Shown: one piece after another, positions 485 through 31,801 of the stretch
Numbering within the stretch: position 1 is the stretch's first letter
Layout: each line of letters starts with the position of its first letter
Assembly: GCF_001548275.1 (NCBI RefSeq)
Contig: NZ_AP014945.1
Span: forward strand, 90,001 to 122,000
Direction: 5' to 3'
Origin: Caldimicrobium thiodismutans
Lineage (GTDB): Bacteria > Desulfobacterota > Thermodesulfobacteria > Thermodesulfobacteriales > Thermodesulfobacteriaceae
DNA: 32,000 bases
Notes under the pieces: generated by a model
What the model saw: only the letters and a program-made list of their open reading frames with translations
The model's database searches: none
Told to the model about the DNA's origin: nothing
Translations under genes and position numbers: made by a program

Positions 485-849
485 TTTTTCAAAGTTTTGT
501 ATAATTCCATATCTTTTGAGACTCTATAGGATTTTTTCTTTGGGCCTAACACAAATTAAATCTTTCCACATACCCGTTCCCCTTCGGAAAGAAAGGATAA
601 AAAATCTGCAAAATCTTTCCTTAAGTAGGGGTTTAAAATTTTATACCCCTTGAATTTTTTGTGGGTCTGTTGTAGCACAGACATTCTTGTCTGTGTTTCT
701 TTCATACATGGGAGTGTAATTTGCCTCCACAGGCAAGATTGCCTGTGTTACTTTCAGACTTGTATAACCTCCCTTGTATAGATATCTAATTCCCCTTTTG
801 CCCCACTTCCTTTTTCTTGTAAGGATATGAATTTATGCAAAGGTTTAAT
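485..849 (+). repeat. Repeat family R1, full copy: module A about 485-660, module B about 661-849
   Basis: Near-identical by eye to the reverse complement of 22494-22852. Module A recurs at 31635-31801 and module B at 4318-4431. It contains a palindrome plus T-run (627-660) and twin hairpins (676-695, 728-747). Confidence 0.9.
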
Positions 850-1640: not shown

Positions 1641-2834
1641 TTATTCAACTACTATTTCTATTTTTTCTATTTTATTCCAAAGATAGCCTGCTGGATTCCA
1701 CAAACTTTCAAAGGGCTGAGATTCACCAATACTATTTGTAGCTCTTGCCATTAATACATATTTACCAGATTTTGTGGGTTTAAAACTATAAAACCATTGA
1801 ATCCATGAGTATCTACCTAAATCTTTGCCAAGCCTTGTGGTATGCCATGTCGTTCCTCCATCTATAGATACAATTACATCTTTTATACTATATCCCCCTG
1901 AAAAAGCTATTCCCATAATATTAATTTCTCTACCCCTTTTAAAGATAGCTCCATCCTGAGGTTCAATTATCAGAGATCTTGTAGTCATTCTACTAACGGG
2001 AACAGTCTTCTTAGGATTTGTTCCTGGTTCCACACAACCACAGGGATTATCAGGTATTCGATAGGCAGTTTTCATCCAGAATCCCTCAAAAGGTTTGTCA
2101 AGAACAGTAATTTCAATTAGGGCCTTTACCCAGTATGTTGCATACCAACCCGGGACAACAAGCCTTGCAGGAAAGCCATTAAGCATAGGAAGAGGTTTAC
2201 CATTCATTTCATAGGCAACTATGATGTCCTCTTCCAGGGCCTTATCAATGGGGAGAGTTTTTACAAAATCCGGAACAGAGGAAAGTGGCCCTGAATCAAG
2301 ACCATTAAAAGCAACTTCCACTGAGCCAATCTTTATCCCTGCCATGTTGAGTATATCTTTAAGTCTAACCCCTGACCAGGTCACATTTCCCATAGCACCA
2401 TTTTTCCATTGTCCCCCTGCTACTCTTGGATTAAAGAAACTTCGGCCATTTCCTGAACACTGAATAACAGCTGTGTAACTAACCTTTTCAAATTTACTTT
2501 TTAGATCTTCCATAGATAATTCAAAAGGTTGTTTCACATTGCCATTTATCTTTAGTCTCCATTTAGTTAAATCAACAGAGGTTGGAATATTGGCAATGTG
2601 CCATCTTACAAAAAGAGCTTCATTAGGAGTAATTAATTCTTTAAAATAATGAAGAGGGGTTTCGAGTTGAGGGGGCCTTGAGGTGAGAAGAATTAACTCT
2701 GTTTTTTCAGGAAATCTGACAAGCTTTCTTTCTTCAGCAAAAAGTGTAGAGGGAATATCGCTAAGAACTGTCATAGCAGTAATAGCTCCGGCTGTTTTTA
2801 AAAAATCCCTTCGAGTAAATTCTTTTTTTCCCAT
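1641..2834 (-). CDS. Sulfite oxidase/dehydrogenase-family molybdopterin subunit (SorA/SoxC-like), Tat-exported
   Basis: Twin-arginine signal TRRDFLKTAGA. Contains the Mo-ligand Cys context VIQCSGNGRSFF typical of the sulfite oxidase family, at about 400 aa. GGAGG SD precedes the ATG. Confidence 0.8.
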   Translation of the reverse strand: MGKKEFTRRDFLKTAGAITAMTVLSDIPSTLFAEERKLVRFPEKTELILLTSRPPQLETPLHYFKELITPNEALFVRWHIANIPTSVDLTKWRLKINGNVKQPFELSMEDLKSKFEKVSYTAVIQCSGNGRSFFNPRVAGGQWKNGAMGNVTWSGVRLKDILNMAGIKIGSVEVAFNGLDSGPLSSVPDFVKTLPIDKALEEDIIVAYEMNGKPLPMLNGFPARLVVPGWYATYWVKALIEITVLDKPFEGFWMKTAYRIPDNPCGCVEPGTNPKKTVPVSRMTTRSLIIEPQDGAIFKRGREINIMGIAFSGGYSIKDVIVSIDGGTTWHTTRLGKDLGRYSWIQWFYSFKPTKSGKYVLMARATNSIGESQPFESLWNPAGYLWNKIEKIEIVVE

Positions 2835-2905
2835 ATTTACCTCCTACGAAAAATTTGTTATGTTATTACCTAAGTTTTTGCATATATAGGGGTTATAATA
2901 GAAAC

Positions 2906-3065
2906 ATGGAAAAGAGAGTAAGGCAGGGCAACTCCATTTTACCTGGGCTTTTAAGCCCTCAGTGGAGTTTGTTGCCTGCCTGCTTAAACCATTATAAGTT
3001 GGTTGGGTTTGTAAACCCTCGTCAAGTTGGAGGATTGGTGAGCAGGTCCCCTGCCTTACTAAAAC
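2906..3065 (+). ncRNA. Candidate IS110 bridge (guide) RNA encoded in the left end
   Basis: TATAAT lies at 2894-2899. A 12-bp long-range stem pairs 2917-2928 with 3049-3060. Two internal hairpins (2945-2958, 3005-3018) are each flanked by unpaired segments. The segments around hairpin 1 match the insertion site (see findings). RNA ends are approximate. Confidence 0.55.
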
Positions 3066-3086
3066 AAAATAAAAGGAGGTCCACCT

Positions 3087-4313
3087 ATGCACTACACCTA
3101 CTTTGTAGGCCTTGATGTCTCCAAAAACTTCTTTCATGCCTGCCTCATTGATTCCTCTCAAAATGTCCTCTTTAACCAGTCCTACCCTCTTGACTACCAG
3201 GGCATCAGTTCCTTTACAAAAGCTCTCCCTCAAGGCTTAAAAAAATCCATCCTTATCGGTATTGAATCCTCCAGTTGTTATCATCTTAATCTCATCACCT
3301 ACCTCGTTAATCATAACTTCACTTGCGTCATCCTTAATCCAATTCTCATTAAAAATTTTGCTAAACTCTCTCTTAGAAAAACCAAAACCGATGCCATAGA
3401 CGCTAAAACTATCGCCATCTTCCTTTCTCAATTCCATCAAAAACTACCTCCCCAGGCCTTTACTTCTGAAGAATTTAAAGACCTTGCCAGAGAAAGAGAA
3501 AGAATTTCTCAAGAAATCGCTAAAAGAAAAAATAACCTCGAAAAACTTGTGGTCGTTACCTTCCCTGAACTTGAAAGAACCGTCAATATCTACAATACCT
3601 CCATTCTTAAACTTCTTGAAAAATTCCCCTCTGCTAAAGCTATTAAAAAAGCCTCTCTTGAGGAAATTGAAAATATACTCTCCTCTCAAAAAGGTAAAAA
3701 ACCCGCCATTTCTGCTAAAGAAATAAAAGCCCTTGCTGAATATTCTATAGCTCAAAATTGGCCCGCAAAAGAATATATTCTTTCCAGAACCATTCAAGAA
3801 CTCTTCTTCCTTCAGGAAACCCTTAAAGAAATTGAAAAACTTCTTAAATCCGCTTGTAAAGAGATTTCCGCTTGCCAGGACCTTGATATCCTCCTTTCTA
3901 TTGAGGGAATTGGAGAAATTACAGCGCTTCATTTTCTTGCTGAAATTCAAGATATAAAGAGATTTCAATCTTACAAACAATTGATTGCCTATGCAGGACT
4001 TGATCCTGCTGTTTATGAATCTGGAAACTTTAAAGGAAAGAGCAAGATTTCTAAACGAGGAAATAGGCATTTGAGAAGGGTTGTATGGCTTATGAGTATT
4101 AATGTAATCAGACACAATCCTATATTCTGGAGCTATTTTGAGAGGAGAAAAAGACAAGGATTGCCTTATAAAAAAGCGGTTTTGGCCACCGCTCATAAAC
4201 TTTTGAGAATTATTTATGCACTTCTCAAATATAAAAAATATTTTGATCCTTCTACTACTTATCATAATATTCCTTCTCAAGGAGGTTTTTACTATGCTTA
4301 TAATTTTTCATAG
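3087..4313 (+). CDS. IS110-family transposase/recombinase (DEDD RuvC-like N-domain plus C-terminal Tnp domain)
   Basis: N-terminus YFVGLDVSKNFFHACL. C-terminus EGIGEITALHFLAEIQDIKRFQSYKQLIAYAGLDPAVYESGNFKGKSKISKRGNRHLRRVVW. AAGGAGG SD lies 7 nt upstream of the ATG. Confidence 0.93.
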   Translation: MHYTYFVGLDVSKNFFHACLIDSSQNVLFNQSYPLDYQGISSFTKALPQGLKKSILIGIESSSCYHLNLITYLVNHNFTCVILNPILIKNFAKLSLRKTKTDAIDAKTIAIFLSQFHQKLPPQAFTSEEFKDLARERERISQEIAKRKNNLEKLVVVTFPELERTVNIYNTSILKLLEKFPSAKAIKKASLEEIENILSSQKGKKPAISAKEIKALAEYSIAQNWPAKEYILSRTIQELFFLQETLKEIEKLLKSACKEISACQDLDILLSIEGIGEITALHFLAEIQDIKRFQSYKQLIAYAGLDPAVYESGNFKGKSKISKRGNRHLRRVVWLMSINVIRHNPIFWSYFERRKRQGLPYKKAVLATAHKLLRIIYALLKYKKYFDPSTTYHNIPSQGGFYYAYNFS

Positions 4314-4317
4314 TTGA

Positions 4318-4431
4318 CTCCACAGGCAAGATTGCCTGTGTTACTTTCAGACTTGTAAAGCTTCCCTTGTATAGATATCTAATTCCCCTTTTACCCCACT
4401 TTTTTTTCTTGTAAGGATATAAACTTATGAA
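4318..4431 (+). repeat. Repeat family R1, module-B fragment split by the IS (its first ~11 nt are at 2861-2871)
   Basis: CTCCACAGGCAAGATTGCCTGTGTTACTTTCAGACTTGTA...CTTGTAAGGATAT is colinear with 725-840. Hairpin CACAGGCAA/TTGCCTGTG lies at 4321-4340. Confidence 0.9.
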
Positions 4432-4523
4432 ACTTGTGTATGGGGCTATTGGCAAACCTTTGTGTTTTCTCGTTACATGTTCCTTTATATTATTGGGCGG
4501 ACAGGAAAAATTTTTACCCCCTC

Positions 4524-4553: not shown

Positions 4554-4581
4554 AATTTCAATTTCAATTTCAATTTCAATT
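4554..4581. repeat. Tandem hexamer (AATTTC) x4 plus a partial unit, at the predicted transcription start
   Basis: Direct reading: AATTTC AATTTC AATTTC AATTTC AATT. Confidence 0.9.
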
Positions 4582-4612: not shown

Positions 4613-4900
4613 GTGAAGATTGTTGTTCTTGGTGGGTATGACCGCTTTGGTCCTTATCTTGAGAAATATGCAAAGTCCCTGGGTCTTGAAATAAATTTTA
4701 TCAATCAACCTAAAAAAGATCTGGAAAAATTATTAAAAAATGCAGATTACATTGTTGTTCTTACAAGATGTGTGTCCCATGAGATGGTGAGATGTGCCAA
4801 GGGCTTTTCCCCTGAAAAATGTATTTTTTGTAAACAGGCAGGTCTTTGTGCTATCAAAAAGATAATTGAAGAAAAAATCTTGAAAACTTTTAATAATTGA
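4613..4900 (+). CDS. DUF2325-like small protein (GTG start)
   Basis: MKIVVLGGYDRF...ADYIVVLTRCVSHEM resembles my recollection of the DUF2325 pattern (ivvlGG ... aD.vv..t..vsH). A G-rich SD precedes the GTG. Confidence 0.6.
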   Translation: MKIVVLGGYDRFGPYLEKYAKSLGLEINFINQPKKDLEKLLKNADYIVVLTRCVSHEMVRCAKGFSPEKCIFCKQAGLCAIKKIIEEKILKTFNN

Positions 4901-18228: not shown

Positions 18229-18282
18229 TTGCCTCATTAAAAATCTATTCGAAATTTTATCGTTGCCTCATATAAAAAATCT
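18229..18282. repeat. Direct repeat TTGCCTCAT(T/ATA)AAAAATCT x2 upstream of the efflux promoter
   Basis: Copies at 18229-18246 and 18263-18282. Confidence 0.7.
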
Positions 18283-18537
18283 CCTAAATCCAATTTAGAT
18301 CTTCTATTTAACCTTCACAAAGAAACTACCTATTTCGCCCCTCTTGAATTTACGAGCTTAGTTCTTTCGCAAAGCTTATTTCTAAGGAAAGAGTGGGTAA
18401 GGAGCTTTGCAGAAAGATAAGGAGATATCAGAAAATGCTTGAGAGATCATATTTAGAGAAAAAAGGGAATTATTTTCGGGAAAAAAATTGACAATAAAAA
18501 GAAGGAAGAGGTAAAATAATTCCCTTTAGAAAATTAA
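18280..18537 (+). repeat. Repeat family R2, copy a (promoter-bearing)
   Basis: Colinear with the reverse complement of 25436-25702. Differences are scattered substitutions and one ~12-nt indel. It starts with the palindrome CTAAATCCAATTTAG and ends with ...TTTAGAAAATTAA. Confidence 0.9.
18488..18517 (+). promoter_or_regulatory. Sigma70-like promoter inside R2a facing the glutamate synthase operon
   Basis: TTGACA (18488-18493), 18-nt spacer, TAAAAT (18512-18517). Confidence 0.55.
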
Positions 18538-18564: not shown

Positions 18565-18634
18565 CACCTCTCACCTTTCACCTTTCACCTTTCACCTTTC
18601 ACCTTTCACCTCTCACCTCTCACCTCTCACCTTT
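18565..18634. repeat. Heptamer tandem array (CACCTYT) x10
   Basis: Unit order: CACCTCT x1, CACCTTT x5, CACCTCT x3, CACCTTT x1. Counted directly. Confidence 0.95.
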
Positions 18635-18801: not shown

Positions 18802-20325
18802 ATGGCTACTCCCCAGTTTGCCAGTTTTTATCCTGATTTTTATATAGAGCGTCTGTGGGATAAGTGTATTAAGTGTAAGAGATGTGTTAAAGAGTGCCCT
18901 TATGAGGCTCACATCTGGGATGCCAAGAAAAAGACCCTTCTTGAAGACCATATCAAGTGTGTAGGGTGCCATAGATGTGAGGCTATATGTCCAACTAAGG
19001 CCATTATCATTAGAAGACATCCAGCTCAATTTAGAGAACATGCCCTTTGGACATCCTGGTATATCAAAAATGTTTACAAACAGGCAGATCAAGGAGGGGT
19101 TCTTTTAACCTCAACGGGGTGTGCCCTTCCTTTTAAAAACTATTTTGATCACCTGGTTCTGGATGCCTGTCAGGTGACGAATCCCCCCATTGATCCCCTA
19201 AGAGAGCCAATGGAGCTCCGCACTTATATTGGGCCAAAGCCTGAGGCCCTTGAAATTGAAGAGGTTAATGGAAAGTTTAGACTTAAAAAGAAGCTTCCTC
19301 CTCTGCTGAAACTTGAGACACCTATTATGTTTGCAGCTATGTCCTATGGAGCTATTAGTCTTCATGTTCATCAGGGGCTTGCCAAGGCAGCGCGTGATCT
19401 CGGAACTTATTATAATACAGGGGAAGGAGGTCTCCATGCCTCCCTTTATGAATATGGCTCAAATACTATTGTGCAGTGTGCCTCCGGGCGTTTTGGTCTG
19501 CATGTAGATTATCTTAATGCAGGTGTGGCAATAGAGATAAAAATTGGCCAGGGAGCTAAACCTGGAATCGGGGGACATCTTCCAGGAGAAAAAGTCACAG
19601 AAGAGATCTCTAAGACTCGAATGATTCCCGTTGGAAGTGATGCCCTTTCTCCAGCCCCTCATCACGACATTTACTCCATTGAAGATTTGAGGGGACTAAT
19701 TTATGCTTTAAAGGAGGCTACAGAGTATAAAAAACTTGTCTTTGTTAAAATTGCAGCAGTTCATAATGTAGCTGCTATTGCATCAGGAATAGTAAGAGCT
19801 GGAGCAGATGCAGTGGTAATTGATGGGCTTAAAGGTGGAACCGGGGCTGCTCCAACTATGTTCAGAGATTATATTGGAATTCCCATTGAGCTTGCTATTT
19901 CAGCGGTGGATAAGCGACTAAGGGCAGAAGGCATTCGCCACAGAACAAGCATTATTGCCTCAGGTGGAATTCGCTGTAGTGCCGATGTAGTGAAGGCTAT
20001 AGCTCTTGGAGCAGATGCGGTTTATATTGGAACAGCAGCTCTCATTGCCGTTGGATGCACTATGTGCCAGAGGTGTTATACGGGAAAATGCCCCTGGGGA
20101 ATTGCCACTAATAAACCTGAACTGATTAAAAGGCTTCCCCCTGAGGTTGCCTATGAAAAGATCTATAATCTTGTAAAGGCCTGGTCTCATGAGATTAAAG
20201 AGATGCTTGGTGCTATGGGAATCAATTCCATTGAGAGTTTAAAGGGGAATAGAGATAAATTACGAGCTGTTGGTTTAACAAAGGAAGAGATGGAAATCCT
20301 TGAAGTAAAACACGCAGGGGAGTAA
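18802..20325 (+). CDS. Glutamate synthase FMN-binding domain protein (GltB domain 2) with N-terminal 2x[4Fe-4S] ferredoxin domain
   Basis: CIKCKRCVKECP and CVGCHRCEAICP motifs. Followed by the GltS FMN domain (IEIKIGQGAKPGIGGHLPG, ASGGIR, DAVYIGTAAL). Confidence 0.9.
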   Translation: MATPQFASFYPDFYIERLWDKCIKCKRCVKECPYEAHIWDAKKKTLLEDHIKCVGCHRCEAICPTKAIIIRRHPAQFREHALWTSWYIKNVYKQADQGGVLLTSTGCALPFKNYFDHLVLDACQVTNPPIDPLREPMELRTYIGPKPEALEIEEVNGKFRLKKKLPPLLKLETPIMFAAMSYGAISLHVHQGLAKAARDLGTYYNTGEGGLHASLYEYGSNTIVQCASGRFGLHVDYLNAGVAIEIKIGQGAKPGIGGHLPGEKVTEEISKTRMIPVGSDALSPAPHHDIYSIEDLRGLIYALKEATEYKKLVFVKIAAVHNVAAIASGIVRAGADAVVIDGLKGGTGAAPTMFRDYIGIPIELAISAVDKRLRAEGIRHRTSIIASGGIRCSADVVKAIALGADAVYIGTAALIAVGCTMCQRCYTGKCPWGIATNKPELIKRLPPEVAYEKIYNLVKAWSHEIKEMLGAMGINSIESLKGNRDKLRAVGLTKEEMEILEVKHAGE

Positions 20326-22493: not shown

Positions 22494-22852
22494 TGCATAA
22501 ATTCAGATCCTTACAAGAAGAAGGAAGTGGGGTAAAAGGGGAATTAGATATCTATACAAGGGAGGTTATACAAGTCTGAAAGTAACACAGGCAATCTTGC
22601 CTGTGGAGGTAAATTACACTCCAATGTATGAAAGAAACACAGACAAGAATGTCTGTGCTACAACAGACCCACAAAAAAATTCAAGGGGTATAAAATTTTA
22701 AACCCCTACTTAAGGAAAGATTTTGCAGATTTTTTATCCTTTCTTTCCGAAGGGGAACGGGTATGTGGAGAGATTTAATTTGTGTTAGGCCCAAAGAAAA
22801 AAATTCTATAAAGTCTTAAAAGATATGGATGCATACAAGAACTGGTCAAAAG
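22494..22852 (-). repeat. Repeat family R1, full copy, inverted relative to 485-849
   Basis: Reverse complement is colinear with 485-849, differing only by scattered substitutions and 1-nt homopolymer indels. Unoccupied IS target: AG (= CT on the other strand) at 22607-22608. Confidence 0.9.
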
Positions 22853-22896
22853 GAGAAAATGGATTATCTTTAATTAAAAACTCTCAGGAGCATGAT

Positions 22897-23709
22897 ATGG
22901 AAGGTATACATAGGGCCAAAGGTTTTGAAAAGATTGTAGAGCCAGTAAGACTCACTTCAAAATCCCGAATAAAATTTCAATGTTATCCTGGAGTTCCTTG
23001 TTTTAAGCTCTGCTGTTCTGAACTTTATCTTCCCCTAACTCCCTATGATATTTTAAGACTCAAGAGATTTCTTAATCTTACTTCGGATGAATTTCTCCTT
23101 CGCTATACAGAACCTTTTATTCTTCCTAAGTCAGGGCTACCTATTGCCAGGCTCAAGATGCAGGATAATGAGGAAAAGACCTGTCCTTTCCTGGGAGAGG
23201 CAGGTTGCACTGTTTATGAAGTGCGTCCTTTAGCCTGTCGATACTATCCCCTTGGATTTGGACTCTTTCGGAATAGAGATGAAGGAAAAAATGAGGACTT
23301 CTTTTATCTTGTCAAAGAGGGATTTTGCCAGGGTTTAGAATCAGGAGAGGAGATTACAGTTGAAGAATATAGAATCTCTCAGGGGATCCCCGGGCTTGAA
23401 GAGCCTATCTTTGAGTGGGCTGAAATCATTATGAAAAAAGAATCCCTCGGGCCAGTTGAGGTGCCTGAAAAGAGTCTTGAACTCTTTTTTATGGTCTCTA
23501 CTAATCCGGAGAGATTTAAAAGCTTTGTCTTTGATACTAAATTTTTGGATATCTTTGAAGTGGATGAAAAAGAGCTTGTTGCTATTAAAGAAGATGAGCT
23601 TAGGCTTTTGCAATTCGGGTTTAAGTGGTTAAAAACTGTGCTCTTTGGAGAGAATTTGGTGAAACGCAGAAAGGAGTCCCCTTCAGTTAAAAAGGTTAAA
23701 CCCTTCTAA
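22897..23709 (+). CDS. YkgJ/UPF0153-family Cys-cluster (Zn/Fe-chelating) protein
   Basis: CYPGVPCFKLCC and CPFLGEAGCTVYEVRPLACRYYP motifs. The track start at 22825 lies inside repeat R1. ATG 22897 has GGAG 7 nt upstream, so I prefer it. Confidence 0.75.
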   Translation: MEGIHRAKGFEKIVEPVRLTSKSRIKFQCYPGVPCFKLCCSELYLPLTPYDILRLKRFLNLTSDEFLLRYTEPFILPKSGLPIARLKMQDNEEKTCPFLGEAGCTVYEVRPLACRYYPLGFGLFRNRDEGKNEDFFYLVKEGFCQGLESGEEITVEEYRISQGIPGLEEPIFEWAEIIMKKESLGPVEVPEKSLELFFMVSTNPERFKSFVFDTKFLDIFEVDEKELVAIKEDELRLLQFGFKWLKTVLFGENLVKRRKESPSVKKVKPF

Positions 23710-25435: not shown

Positions 25436-25702
25436 TTAATTTTCTAAAGGAATTTATTTTACCTCCCCCTCCTTTTTATTGTCAATTTTTTCCCCGAAAA
25501 GGATTCCCTTTTTTCTTTAAATATGCTTTCTCAAGCATTTTCTGATATCTCCTTATCTTTCTGCAAAGCTCCTTTACCTTTCCCCCCACTCTTTCCTTGG
25601 AAATAAGCTTTGCGAAAGAACTAAGCTCGTAATTTCAAGAGGGGGCGAAATAGATAGTTTTTTCGTGAAGGTTCAAGAGAGGGACTAAATTGGATTTAGA
25701 AG
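25436..25702 (-). repeat. Repeat family R2, copy b (inverted relative to copy a)
   Basis: See 18280-18537. The palindrome CTAAATTGGATTTAG lies at 25685-25699. Confidence 0.9.
25456..25485 (-). promoter_or_regulatory. Sigma70-like promoter inside R2b facing rsmE
   Basis: On the minus strand: TTGACA (25485-25480), 18-nt spacer, TAAAAT (25461-25456). Same geometry as in R2a. Confidence 0.5.
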
Positions 25703-25707
25703 ATCCC

Positions 25708-31643: not shown

Positions 31644-31801
31644 GGCAGTTGTATAAGTCCATATCTTTTGAGACTCTATAGGATTTTTTCTTAGGGCGTA
31701 ACACAAATTAAATCTCTCCACACAATCCCCCTTCGGAAAGAAAGGATAAATAATCTTTAAAATCTTTCTTTTAAGTAGGGGTTTAAAATTTTAAACCCCT
31801 A
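31635..31801 (+). repeat. Repeat family R1, module A only
   Basis: Colinear with 485-650. Ends in the perfect palindrome AGGGGTTTAAAATTTTAAACCCCT (31777-31800). No module B follows. Confidence 0.85.

What the first reader, a model, noticed from the sequence alone, without database searches (positions are those of the whole stretch)
2872..4317. IS110-family element delimited to the nucleotide against two unoccupied paralogous sites
The 408-aa ORF has IS110 hallmarks: an N-terminal DVSK DEDD-type domain and a C-terminal GIGEITA...AYAGLDP...SG...ISKRGNRHLRR domain. DNA right of the ORF (4318 onward, CTCCACAGGCAAGATTGCCTGTG...) is colinear with repeat R1 at 725-840 and with the reverse strand of 22494-22608. 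DNA left of 2872 (ATGTTATTACCT) matches the R1 bases just 5' of that point: GTGTAATTTACCT in the 22.6-kb copy and GTGTAATTTGCCT in the 0.7-kb copy. Joining 2871 to 4320 recreates an intact repeat (...TTATTACCTCCACAGG...). CT is present at both junctions (2870-2871, 4318-4319), consistent with an IS110-type core dinucleotide. There are no terminal inverted repeats. The right end is only TTGA after the stop codon, and the left end is 215 nt non-coding.
Basis: partly seen in the sequence, partly recalled or inferred. Interest (0 to 1): 0.7.

Follow-up and report, generated by a model that had tools for sequence, protein, structure and literature searches.

The report
IS110 insertion sequence with bridge RNA

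Summary
The left end is wrong.

- **Family.** The 408-aa ORF has both IS110 Pfam domains and all catalytic residues. It is identical to three annotated transposases of Caldimicrobium thiodismutans.
- **Boundaries.** Three independent copies at other loci (L001, L052, L053) share sequence with the window from 2843, not 2872. All read ...AATTTAC-CT|CCTACGAAAAATTTG...CATAGTTGA|CT-CCACAGG. The element is therefore 2843-4317 (1475 bp), flanked by CT at 2841-2842 and 4318-4319. LE is 244 nt and RE is 4 nt.
ATGTTATTACCT lies inside the element. It is a 6-nt match that about 6% of shuffles reproduce.
- **Bridge RNA.** LE encodes an IS621-like bridge RNA at about 2914-3063. The target loop is LTG TTTACCT, a hairpin, then RTG GTGGAG, matching TTTAC-CT-CCAC. 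The donor loop is LDG AGTTGGTT, a hairpin, then RDG GTTGGAG, matching the RE-CT-LE junction. The helices show compensatory changes, and the RTG covaries with the right flank in six lineages.
- **Open point.** In this copy only 8-10 nt left of the element match R1.

This is a new member of a known kind, of low to moderate interest.

The parts
2835..2840 (+). Left target half (LT, ATTTAC). This is the only part of the left flank of this copy that matches R1.
   Evidence: 8-nt contiguous match ATTTACCT to R1 when anchored at 2842. The match to the LTG is shown.
2841..2842 (+). Left copy of the core dinucleotide CT
   Evidence: All copies read AC-CT|CCTACG. The LTG and the RTG both end on CT.
2843..4317 (+). 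The IS110-family element proper (1475 bp)
   Evidence: BLAST gives 100% identity over 1-1475 to L001, 99.3% to L052 and 99.0% to L053. The flanks diverge outside these ends.
2843..3086 (+). Left end (LE), 244 nt non-coding. It starts with the right donor half CCTACG.
2856..2864 (+). TG-n-TATGTT, an extended -10-like box. On the excised circle it would lie 16 nt downstream of TTGACT (RE TTGA plus core CT).
   Evidence: Read directly from the joined sequence. The same position reads TTGACT-17-TATAAT in L057 and TTGACT-17-TATAAA in L058. This is inferred and expression was not tested.
2894..2899 (+). Internal TATAAT box about 15-20 nt upstream of the structured RNA. No -35 match.
   Evidence: Conserved in the L055 and L056 relatives. 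The promoter scan found no full sigma-70 site.
2914..3063 (+). Predicted bridge RNA (structured core)
   Evidence: 35 pairs, 96.7% paired, 10 pairs with compensatory changes, 0 of 500 shuffles as good. The covariance model scores 187.7 bits here and 72 bits in the untrained relative L014. Fold z-score is -2.76.
2938..2944 (+). Left target guide (LTG) TTTACCT, same sense as LT plus core
   Evidence: Best anchored match in LE. The LTG followed by the RTG in this order occurs in 1.7e-4 of shuffles.
2945..2958 (+). Distal hairpin of the target-binding loop (GGGCTTTTAAGCCC)
   Evidence: 100% paired across relatives, with one compensatory pair.
2962..2967 (+). Right target guide (RTG) GTGGAG, the reverse complement of CT-CCAC
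   Evidence: It covaries with the right flank in six lineages.
2997..3004 (+). Left donor guide (LDG) AGTTGGTT. [quoted passage not shown]
   Evidence: Invariant in all relatives, as is the RE end AGTTGA.
3005..3018 (+). Distal hairpin of the donor-binding loop (GGGTTTGTAAACCC)
   Evidence: The U-A pair changes to C-G in 3 of 7 sequences.
3026..3032 (+). Right donor guide (RDG) GTTGGAG, the reverse complement of CT-CCAAC, against the donor CT-CCTAC (1 mismatch)
3087..4313 (+). Recombinase gene, 408 aa. D10, E60, D102, D105 and S312-G313 are present.
   Evidence: Pfam. PDB alignments to IS621 and ISCro4. IS621 catalytic residues from PMC11208158.
4314..4317 (+). Right end (RE), TTGA. It is the end of the left donor half.
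4318..4319 (+). Right copy of the core dinucleotide CT
4320..4432 (+). Right part of repeat R1. It begins with the right target half CCAC, which is the 5' arm of the perfect 8-bp hairpin at 4321-4340.
   Evidence: 92-96% identity to R1. Hairpin found.
497..840 (+). Unoccupied R1 copy. Its target TTTGCCTCCAC at 720-730 has one mismatch to the LTG.
22494..22838 (-). Unoccupied R1 copy. Its target TTTACCTCCAC at 22603-22613 is a perfect match.

Best explanation
Window 2843-4317 is an intact and probably active copy of an IS110-group insertion sequence of Caldimicrobium thiodismutans.

**Shown:**
- It encodes a DEDD/serine recombinase.
- Its ends are CCTACG... and ...AGTTGA, each abutting a CT dinucleotide.
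- It is found at four or more different loci with identical junctions. In three of these it splits a full or longer copy of the dispersed intergenic repeat R1 at ...AATTTAC-CT-CCACAGG....
- Its 244-nt left end contains a conserved structured RNA with two stem / internal-loop / hairpin modules.

**Inferred by analogy with IS621 (PMC11208160, PMC11208158):**
- This RNA is a bridge RNA.
- Its first internal loop pairs with the target. [quoted passage not shown] The two overlap on CT.
- Its second loop pairs with the RE-CT-LE junction of the excised circle.
- The recombinase tetramer then exchanges strands next to CT through a phosphoserine intermediate. This inserts the circle without a target-site duplication.
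- Excision would place TTGACT (RE plus core) 16 nt upstream of TG-n-TATGTT, giving a circle-specific promoter.

**This copy.** It lies 7-8 nt upstream of the start codon of a SoxC-like molybdoenzyme gene. It keeps that gene's GGAGG ribosome-binding site, because LE starts with the same CC as the right target half.
For: - **Domains and catalytic residues:**
- **Protein identity:** identical protein annotated three times in C. thiodismutans, plus a 407-aa variant.
- **Junctions:** identical in L001, L052 and L053, and at the orthologous locus L054.
- **Repeat R1:** split at positions 230-234 in L052 and L053.
- **Guides:** the LTG and RTG are the best anchored matches in LE. Their joint occurrence in this order has P = 1.7e-4.
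- **RNA structure:** 10 of 35 pairs have compensatory changes, 0 of 500 shuffles reach the observed score, and slid controls pair at only 30-61%.
- **Covariance model:** it finds the RNA in the untrained 41% relative L014, immediately upstream of its recombinase gene.
- **RTG/right-flank covariation:** GTGGAG with CTCCAC; GGGAG with CTCCC; AGGGAG with CTCCCT; AAGGAG with CTCCTT; TTAAGGAG with CTCCTTAA; AAAGGAG with CTCCTTT.
- **LTG/left-flank match:** TTTTTCCT in L057.
Against: - No expression or activity data exist.
- Rfam has no matching family.
- The LTG does not match the left flank in the two most distant relatives, L058 and L014. In L056 it matches only if that element's LE is 3 nt longer.
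- The donor guides rely on two wobbles (LDG) and one mismatch (RDG).
- The 4-nt identity CTCC at both junctions means flank comparison alone cannot fix the exchange point. CT is chosen because both target guides end on it.
- Two alternative basal pairings of the RNA are possible. One is a closing stem P1 plus P4, and the other is a long stem under the target-binding loop.
- The promoter scan found no full sigma-70 site in the linear sequence.
Confidence: 0.88

Rival explanations
1. The element is 2872-4317. On this view ATGTTATTACCT at 2860-2871 is the left half of an R1 target.
For: There is a 6-nt identity TTACCT plus scattered matches to R1 when anchored at 2871, and CT is present at 2870-2871.
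Against: - Bases 2843-2871 are present and identical in copies at three other loci. In those copies they are preceded by genuine R1 sequence ending AATTTACCT.
- The same 29 nt are conserved in relatives at 84% aa identity that are inserted in non-R1 sites.
- The TTACCT match is expected in 6% of shuffles.
- In the relatives this position reads TTAACT or TTATCT.
Confidence: 0.02
2. This copy did not insert into a pre-existing R1. Instead it marks a rearrangement breakpoint. Either it inserted at a pseudo-target formed by the SoxC-like gene's ribosome-binding site (GGAGGTAAAT, the reverse complement of ATTTACCTCC) and later recombined with a copy sitting in R1, or a half-site recombination deleted the left part of R1.
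For: - Only 8-10 nt left of the element match R1, whereas L052 and L053 keep 233 and 106 nt.
- The retained 8 nt are essentially what the LTG reads, one base more than its 7-nt match.
- In an 80%-identical orthologue (L059) the gene follows a soxB-like gene after 45 nt, so synteny breaks at the element.
- The genome holds four or more near-identical copies that could recombine.
Against: - R1 is modular and occurs in truncated forms: module 1-155 alone at 31649-31800, and 129-345 in L053. A solo right module is therefore plausible.
- The same arrangement is present in a second sample (L054).
- At 80% aa identity, synteny may differ for unrelated reasons.
- This rival concerns the history of this copy, not what the element is.
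Confidence: 0.35
3. The conserved LE structure is a cis-regulatory leader or antisense element that controls recombinase expression. It is not a guide RNA, and target choice is made by the protein.
For: - Earlier literature proposed regulatory roles for IS110 non-coding ends (cited in PMC11208160).
- The LTG fails to match the left flank in L058 and L014.
- There is no direct evidence of transcription here.
Against: - The loop sequences that vary between relatives track their right flanks in six lineages, while the donor-side loops stay constant along with the element ends.
- The module sizes and their order match the IS621 bridge RNA solved by cryo-EM (stem, LTG, stem-loop, RTG; stem, LDG, stem-loop, RDG).
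- The recombinase is homologous to IS621 and ISCro4.
Confidence: 0.07

Closest known systems
IS621 (E. coli, IS110 group): bridge recombinase and bridge RNA (PMC11208160, PMC11208158; PDB 8wt6)
   Same: - Both have a DEDD RuvC-like domain and a Tnp domain with a catalytic Ser-Gly. E60, D102 and D105 carry the same numbers in both proteins.
- Both use a CT core and have a long LE and a very short RE.
- The LE RNA has the same layout: stem, LTG, stem-loop, RTG, then stem, LDG, stem-loop, RDG.
- The target is a hairpin-bearing intergenic repeat.
- A -35 box is supplied by the RE-core junction of the circle.
   Different: - The protein is about 80 aa longer between the RuvC and Tnp domains. Sequence similarity is distant (E 3e-17, mostly over the C-terminal domain).
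- The RTG match is longer (6 nt, against a 4-base RTG) and the contiguous LTG match is shorter (7 nt, against a 9-base LTG).
- A covariation-supported closing stem (P1) may join the 5' and 3' ends of the RNA.
- There is a second, internal TATAAT box.
- The host is a thermophilic member of the Thermodesulfobacteria.
ISPpu10 (Pseudomonas putida, IS110 group; bioRxiv 10.64898/2026.03.19.712850)
   Same: [quoted passage not shown]
   Different: In ISPpu10 the stem-loop is described as a GC-rich 5' extension of the target. Here the perfect 8-bp hairpin is on the right side and overlaps the right target half (CCAC is part of its 5' arm). Whether the hairpin matters here is untested.
ISCro4 transposase (PDB 9t56)
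   Same: It is the best solved-structure match (E 4e-20). The alignment covers the E60 and D102/D105 segments and the YESG serine loop.
   Different: It is 341 aa against 408 aa, and only local alignments are obtained. Its RNA and target were not compared here.
IS1111 group of the IS110 family
   Same: Same recombinase family, with site-specific insertion into repeats. This element has an imperfect 10-nt subterminal inverted repeat (2846-2855 against 4302-4311, 9 of 10), which recalls IS1111 STIRs.
   Different: IS1111 elements have a long RE that carries the bridge RNA downstream of the gene. Here RE is 4 nt and the RNA is in LE, so this element belongs to the IS110 group.

Membership tests
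IS110 family (recombinase) | N-terminal DEDD RuvC-like domain (PF01548) | tested here: met
   PF01548 at E 9e-34, covering profile positions 1-155 of 155. D10, E60, D102 and D105 are present. E60, D102 and D105 align to the IS621 and ISCro4 residues. D10 is read from the DVSK motif.
IS110 family (recombinase) | C-terminal Tnp domain (PF02371) with the conserved catalytic serine | tested here: met
   PF02371 at E 1e-27. YES312G313 aligns to IS621 YES241G242.
IS110 family (element) | No terminal inverted repeats and no target-site duplication beyond the shared core | tested here: met
   The ends are CCTACG... and ...AGTTGA. The empty site ATTTAC-CT-CCACAGG is restored by removing the element plus one CT. 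Only a subterminal imperfect inverted repeat is seen.
IS110 family (element) | Sequence-specific insertion at the same position of a repeated target | tested here: met
   Four loci have identical junctions, three of them within R1 at positions 230-234.
IS110 group (as opposed to IS1111 group) | LE much longer than RE, with the structured RNA in LE | tested here: met
   LE is 244 nt and RE is 4 nt. The RNA lies at 2914-3063, upstream of the gene. The criterion is taken from PMC11208160.
Bridge RNA | Two modules, each a stem, a 5' guide, a stem-loop and a 3' guide, conserved with covariation | tested here: met
   6 helices and 35 pairs, 10 with compensatory changes, 0 of 500 shuffles as good. 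The architecture was compared with the IS621 description.
Bridge RNA | Target-loop guides complementary to the left-bottom and right-top strands of the target, overlapping on the core | tested here: met
   TTTACCT and GTGGAG match TTTAC-CT-CCAC, with P = 1.7e-4. RTG/right-flank covariation holds in 6 lineages. The LTG/left-flank match holds in 4 lineages and fails in L058 and L014.
Bridge RNA | Donor-loop guides complementary to the RE-core-LE junction | tested here: inconclusive
   AGTTGGTT against AGTTGACT gives 6 Watson-Crick pairs and 2 wobbles. GTTGGAG against CTCCTAC has 1 mismatch. Guides and ends are invariant across relatives, so there is no covariation to test.
Bridge RNA | The RNA is transcribed and bound by the recombinase, and reprogramming the loops retargets recombination | not testable with these tools
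   This needs RNA-seq and recombination assays.
Bridge RNA | Promoter reconstituted across the RE-LE junction of the circle | tested here: inconclusive
   The window circle reads TTGACT, 16 nt, TG-n-TATGTT. L057 reads TTGACT-17-TATAAT and L058 reads TTGACT-17-TATAAA. These are consensus matches only. There is also an internal TATAAT at 2894-2899.
Rfam RNA families | A match to a curated covariance model | tested here: not met
   No hit at gathering thresholds over the whole window. Only chance-level hits (E above 3) appear in 2780-3120.

The most novel reading that the evidence does not exclude
The copy in this window may be the product of a bridge-RNA-guided (half-site) or inter-copy rearrangement rather than a simple insertion. 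On this reading, the recombinase or homologous recombination joined the element to a pseudo-target that is the ribosome-binding site of a SoxC-like sulfite-dehydrogenase operon (GGAGGTAAAT, the reverse complement of the LTG-read motif). That would have removed the left part of R1 and the operon's native upstream genes. It would be a natural example of an IS110 element reshaping a sulfur-metabolism locus in a thermophile through its RNA-specified target. It would also show that a target motif resembling Shine-Dalgarno sequences creates many genic pseudo-targets.
Probability: 0.2. Interest if true: 0.45.

Novelty: new member of a known kind. Interest (0 to 1): 0.27.

Why it matters
- **Annotation.** The result corrects the element's ends to 2843-4317, not 2872-4317, and corrects the circle junction that would be used for PCR. 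It also gives the 11-13-nt target.
- **Biology.** It adds a thermophile-derived IS110-group recombinase with a readable bridge RNA and natural guide/target covariation across several lineages. This is a plausible but unremarkable addition to the catalogue of bridge recombinases. It does not change what is known about the family.
- **Method.** It shows how a short fortuitous match inside an element can mimic a target half when the real flank has been truncated.

Tried and rejected
- **Rfam.** Searches at gathering thresholds (whole window) and at a permissive E-value (2780-3120) gave nothing meaningful.
- **Promoter scan.** The scan of 2700-4500 found no full sigma-70 site on either strand. There is therefore no evidence for an outward promoter driving the SoxC-like gene.
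- **Metagenome scan.** The scan with the protein found only relatives at 41% identity or less. The genome scan found one 85% relative, cut by a contig end.
- **Exact-protein look-ups.** The look-up for the window protein returned only a 1.5-kb Logan contig. The variant P0122 and the SoxC-like protein were not on record. The complete C. thiodismutans genome could therefore not be surveyed for all element and R1 copies.
- **Is R1 the leader of a paralogous gene family?** I tested this because R1's left end overlaps the start of ORF 22825-23709. The equivalent frames at the other two copies stop after 11-18 codons, so this idea was rejected.
- **Inverted repeat pair.** I tested whether the pair at 18279-18537 and 25436-25704 flanks paralogous genes. 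It does not. The neighbours are an outer-membrane efflux protein and an amidohydrolase with no similarity to each other.
- **MFE folding.** The minimum-free-energy fold of the LE alone closes the internal loops. It was not used as the structure; the structure came from covariation.
- **One paper could not be read.** The half-match recombination preprint (10.64898/2026.08.31.748434) was not held, so only its abstract informs the rearrangement idea.
Full report
**1. What is in the sequence**

- The ORF 3087-4313 (+) encodes 408 aa. It matches both IS110 Pfam domains: PF01548 at 9e-34 over the full profile, and PF02371 at 1e-27.
- Its only solved-structure relatives are two bridge recombinases, ISCro4 (9t56, 4e-20) and IS621 (8wt6, 3e-17).
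- In those alignments E60, D102, D105 and S312-G313 fall on the IS621 residues E60, D102, D105 and S241-G242. These residues, with D11, form the composite active site (PMC11208158). D10 sits in the N-terminal DVSK motif.
- The protein is identical to three GenBank entries of Caldimicrobium thiodismutans (BAU22495.1, BAU22927.1, BAU23149.1). A 407-aa variant (BAU22624.1) is in the same genome. The window therefore very probably comes from that 1.81-Mb genome, which holds at least four copies.

**2. The repeat**

- R1 is real. The segment 497-840 (+) and the segment 22494-22838 (-) are about 345 nt long and 96% identical. The segment 4318-4429 matches R1 positions 231-343 at 92%.
- R1 is non-coding. 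The frames entering its left end stop after 11-18 codons in two of three copies.
- R1 is modular. Positions 1-155 occur alone at 31649-31800, and L053 has only positions 129-345.
- On the + strand R1 carries several hairpins, two of which were scored as terminator-like or noted by eye. The one at 4321-4340 (CACAGGCAAGATTGCCTGTG) starts two bases after the core.

**3. The boundaries**

- *Other copies.* A Logan contig holds the identical protein (L001). Two contigs of assembly GCA_017880035.1 hold 99%-identical copies at unrelated loci: L052 next to tuf/secE/nusG, and L053 next to a mannose-1-phosphate guanylyltransferase gene.
- *Extent of shared sequence.* BLAST shows that window 2843-4317 is shared end to end with all three.
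- *Flanks.* All three read ...GTGTAATTTAC-CT|CCTACGAAAAATTTG...TTTTTCATAGTTGA|CT-CCACAGGCAAG.... In L052 and L053 these flanks are R1 positions up to 234 and from 231.
- *Relatives in other targets.* Relatives at 84%, 57%, 49% and 41% aa identity sit in non-R1 sites, yet start CCTAC/CCTAT and end AGTTGA in the same way. The right end therefore does not depend on R1.
- *Result.* The element is 2843-4317, which is 1475 bp. CT lies at 2841-2842 and at 4318-4319. LE is 244 nt and RE is 4 nt.
- *The exchange point.* CTCC is present at both junctions, so flank comparison leaves a 4-nt ambiguity. I place the exchange at CT because both target guides end there (section 4).

- Anchored at 2871, the match to R1 is 6 contiguous nt. 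Anchored at 2842, it is 8.
- TTACCT appears somewhere in 6% of shuffled LE sequences.
- The motif is not conserved in the 84% relatives, which read TTAACT or TTATCT.

**4. The bridge RNA**

- *Target loop.* The best LTG is TTTACCT at 2938-2944. The best RTG is GTGGAG at 2962-2967. They flank the hairpin GGGCTTTTAAGCCC (2945-2958).
- *Significance.* Finding both guides in that order and within 5-40 nt happens in 1.7e-4 of 200,000 shuffles.
- *Donor loop.* This loop is built the same way. AGTTGGTT (2997-3004) matches AGTTGA-CT with two wobbles. It is followed by the hairpin GGGTTTGTAAACCC (3005-3018) and then GTTGGAG (3026-3032), which matches CT-CCTAC with one mismatch.
- *Architecture.* This is the stem / guide / stem-loop / guide layout, twice over, described for the IS621 bridge RNA.
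- *Covariation.* On an alignment of seven LE sequences, a six-helix structure is 96.7% paired. It has 10 pairs with changes on both sides, no shuffle reaches that, and slid controls pair at 30-61%.
- *Covariance model.* A model built from six of these sequences finds the RNA once in the window (187.7 bits). It also finds it, outside the training set, just upstream of the recombinase gene of the 41% relative L014 (72 bits, E 9e-16).
- *RTG tracks the right flank in all six lineages*:

| Lineage | RTG | Right flank |
|---|---|---|
| window | GTGGAG | CTCCAC |
| L055 | GGGAG | CTCCC |
| L056 | AGGGAG | CTCCCT |
| L057 | AAGGAG | CTCCTT |
| L058 | TTAAGGAG | CTCCTTAA |
| L014 | AAAGGAG | CTCCTTT |

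- *LTG matches are less general.* The LTG matches the left flank in the window lineage and in L057 (TTTTTCCT). It matches with wobbles in L055. In L056 it matches only if that LE is 3 nt longer. It does not match in L058 or L014.
- *Alternative folds.* Two basal pairings are possible. One has a closing stem, 2918-2928 with 3049-3059, plus 2979-2984 with 3041-3046. The other has a long stem under the target-binding loop, 2922-2932 with 2971-2981. Compensatory changes in L057 and L058 favour the first, and L014 looks like the second.
- *Rfam.* It has no matching model.

**5. Expression signals (inferred)**

- On the circle, RE TTGA plus CT gives TTGACT. This lies 16 nt upstream of TG-n-TATGTT (2856-2864).
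- The same position reads TTGACT-17-TATAAT in L057 and TTGACT-17-TATAAA in L058. This echoes the junction promoter of IS621.
- In the integrated state the -35 position reads TTACCT.
- A second TATAAT box at 2894-2899 lacks a -35 box.
- The tool's scan of the linear sequence finds no full promoter on either strand.

**6. This particular copy**

- Left of the element only ATTTACCT(CC) matches R1. Next comes the start codon of a TAT-signal molybdoenzyme of the sulfite-oxidase/SoxC type (1641-2834, minus strand), followed by two small genes, one of them a cytochrome c.
- The gene's GGAGG ribosome-binding site (the complement of 2840-2844) survives, because LE begins with the same CC as the right target half.
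- The same arrangement occurs in a JGI metagenome contig (L054). There the LTG has acquired one mutation, TTTCACCT.
- In an 80%-identical orthologue the gene follows a soxB-like gene after 45 nt, so synteny breaks at the element.
- Two histories fit: insertion into a solo right module of R1, or a later rearrangement between copies or half-sites. I could not obtain the whole genome to decide. I give the rearrangement reading about 0.35 as a history of this copy, and 0.2 for the stronger RNA-guided version.

**7. Verdict**

- The object is a well-behaved IS110-group insertion sequence with a predicted bridge RNA. It targets TTTAC-CT-CCAC beside a hairpin in a dispersed repeat, much as IS621 and ISPpu10 target REP-like sequences.
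- Its transposase is already annotated. The corrected ends, the target and the bridge RNA are new details.
- It is a new member of a known kind, with interest of about 0.27.

Noticed in passing
window 18279-18537 and 25436-25704: A second dispersed non-coding repeat, about 260 nt and 86-97% complementary, occurs as an inverted pair. The pair flanks a 6.9-kb segment that holds glutamate-synthase-type genes and the unoccupied R1 copy at 22494-22838. The outward-facing neighbour genes (an outer-membrane efflux protein and an amidohydrolase) are unrelated to each other.
   Followed up: partly
window 18565-18634: Ten tandem copies of the heptamer CACCTTT (95% matches) lie directly next to one arm of that inverted repeat and upstream of the gene at 18802.
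   Followed up: no
window 4554-4581: There are 4.7 perfect tandem copies of AATTTC, just upstream of a DUF2325 gene (4613-4900) and downstream of the R1 right module.
   Followed up: no
window 25458-25468: A near-cognate, unoccupied target TTTACCTCCCC (one mismatch in the right half) lies inside the second repeat family. The target motif is the reverse complement of a Shine-Dalgarno-like GGAGGTAAA, so pseudo-targets near gene starts may be common.
   Followed up: partly
window 31649-31800; L053 2625-2730: R1 is modular. Positions 1-155 occur alone at the end of the window. L053 has only 129-345. The occupied site in the window has only about 223-343.
   Followed up: partly
L054 (JGI 3300038964), position equivalent to window 2941: The orthologous copy at the same locus in another sample carries a T-to-C change inside the left target guide (TTTCACCT). 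That change would mismatch its own target.
   Followed up: no
L058 1337-1482 and L014 83-228: In the two most distant relatives the right target guide matches the right flank over 7-8 nt, but the left target guide does not match the left flank. Possible causes are off-target or half-matched insertions, flank turnover, or a different register of the left guide in those lineages.
   Followed up: partly
window 2846-2855 and 4302-4311: An imperfect subterminal inverted repeat (ACGAAAAATT against AATTTTTCAT, 9 of 10) brackets the donor core region on the circle. It is conserved in the 84% relatives. It is A/T-rich, and its significance was not tested.
   Followed up: partly
window 2922-2928, 2975-2983, 3041-3046, 3049-3055: Four mutually complementary segments (GGCAGGG, CCTGCC, AGCAGG, CCCTGCC) allow two exclusive folds of the LE RNA. 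L014 shows an analogous arrangement. This could be a conformational switch or simply redundancy.
   Followed up: partly
L059 2440-2505 compared with window 2832-2845: The SoxC-like gene of an 80%-identical relative lies 45 nt downstream of a soxB-like (metallophosphatase / 5'-nucleotidase C) gene. In the window that upstream gene is absent, and the element plus the R1 module stand in its place.
   Followed up: partly
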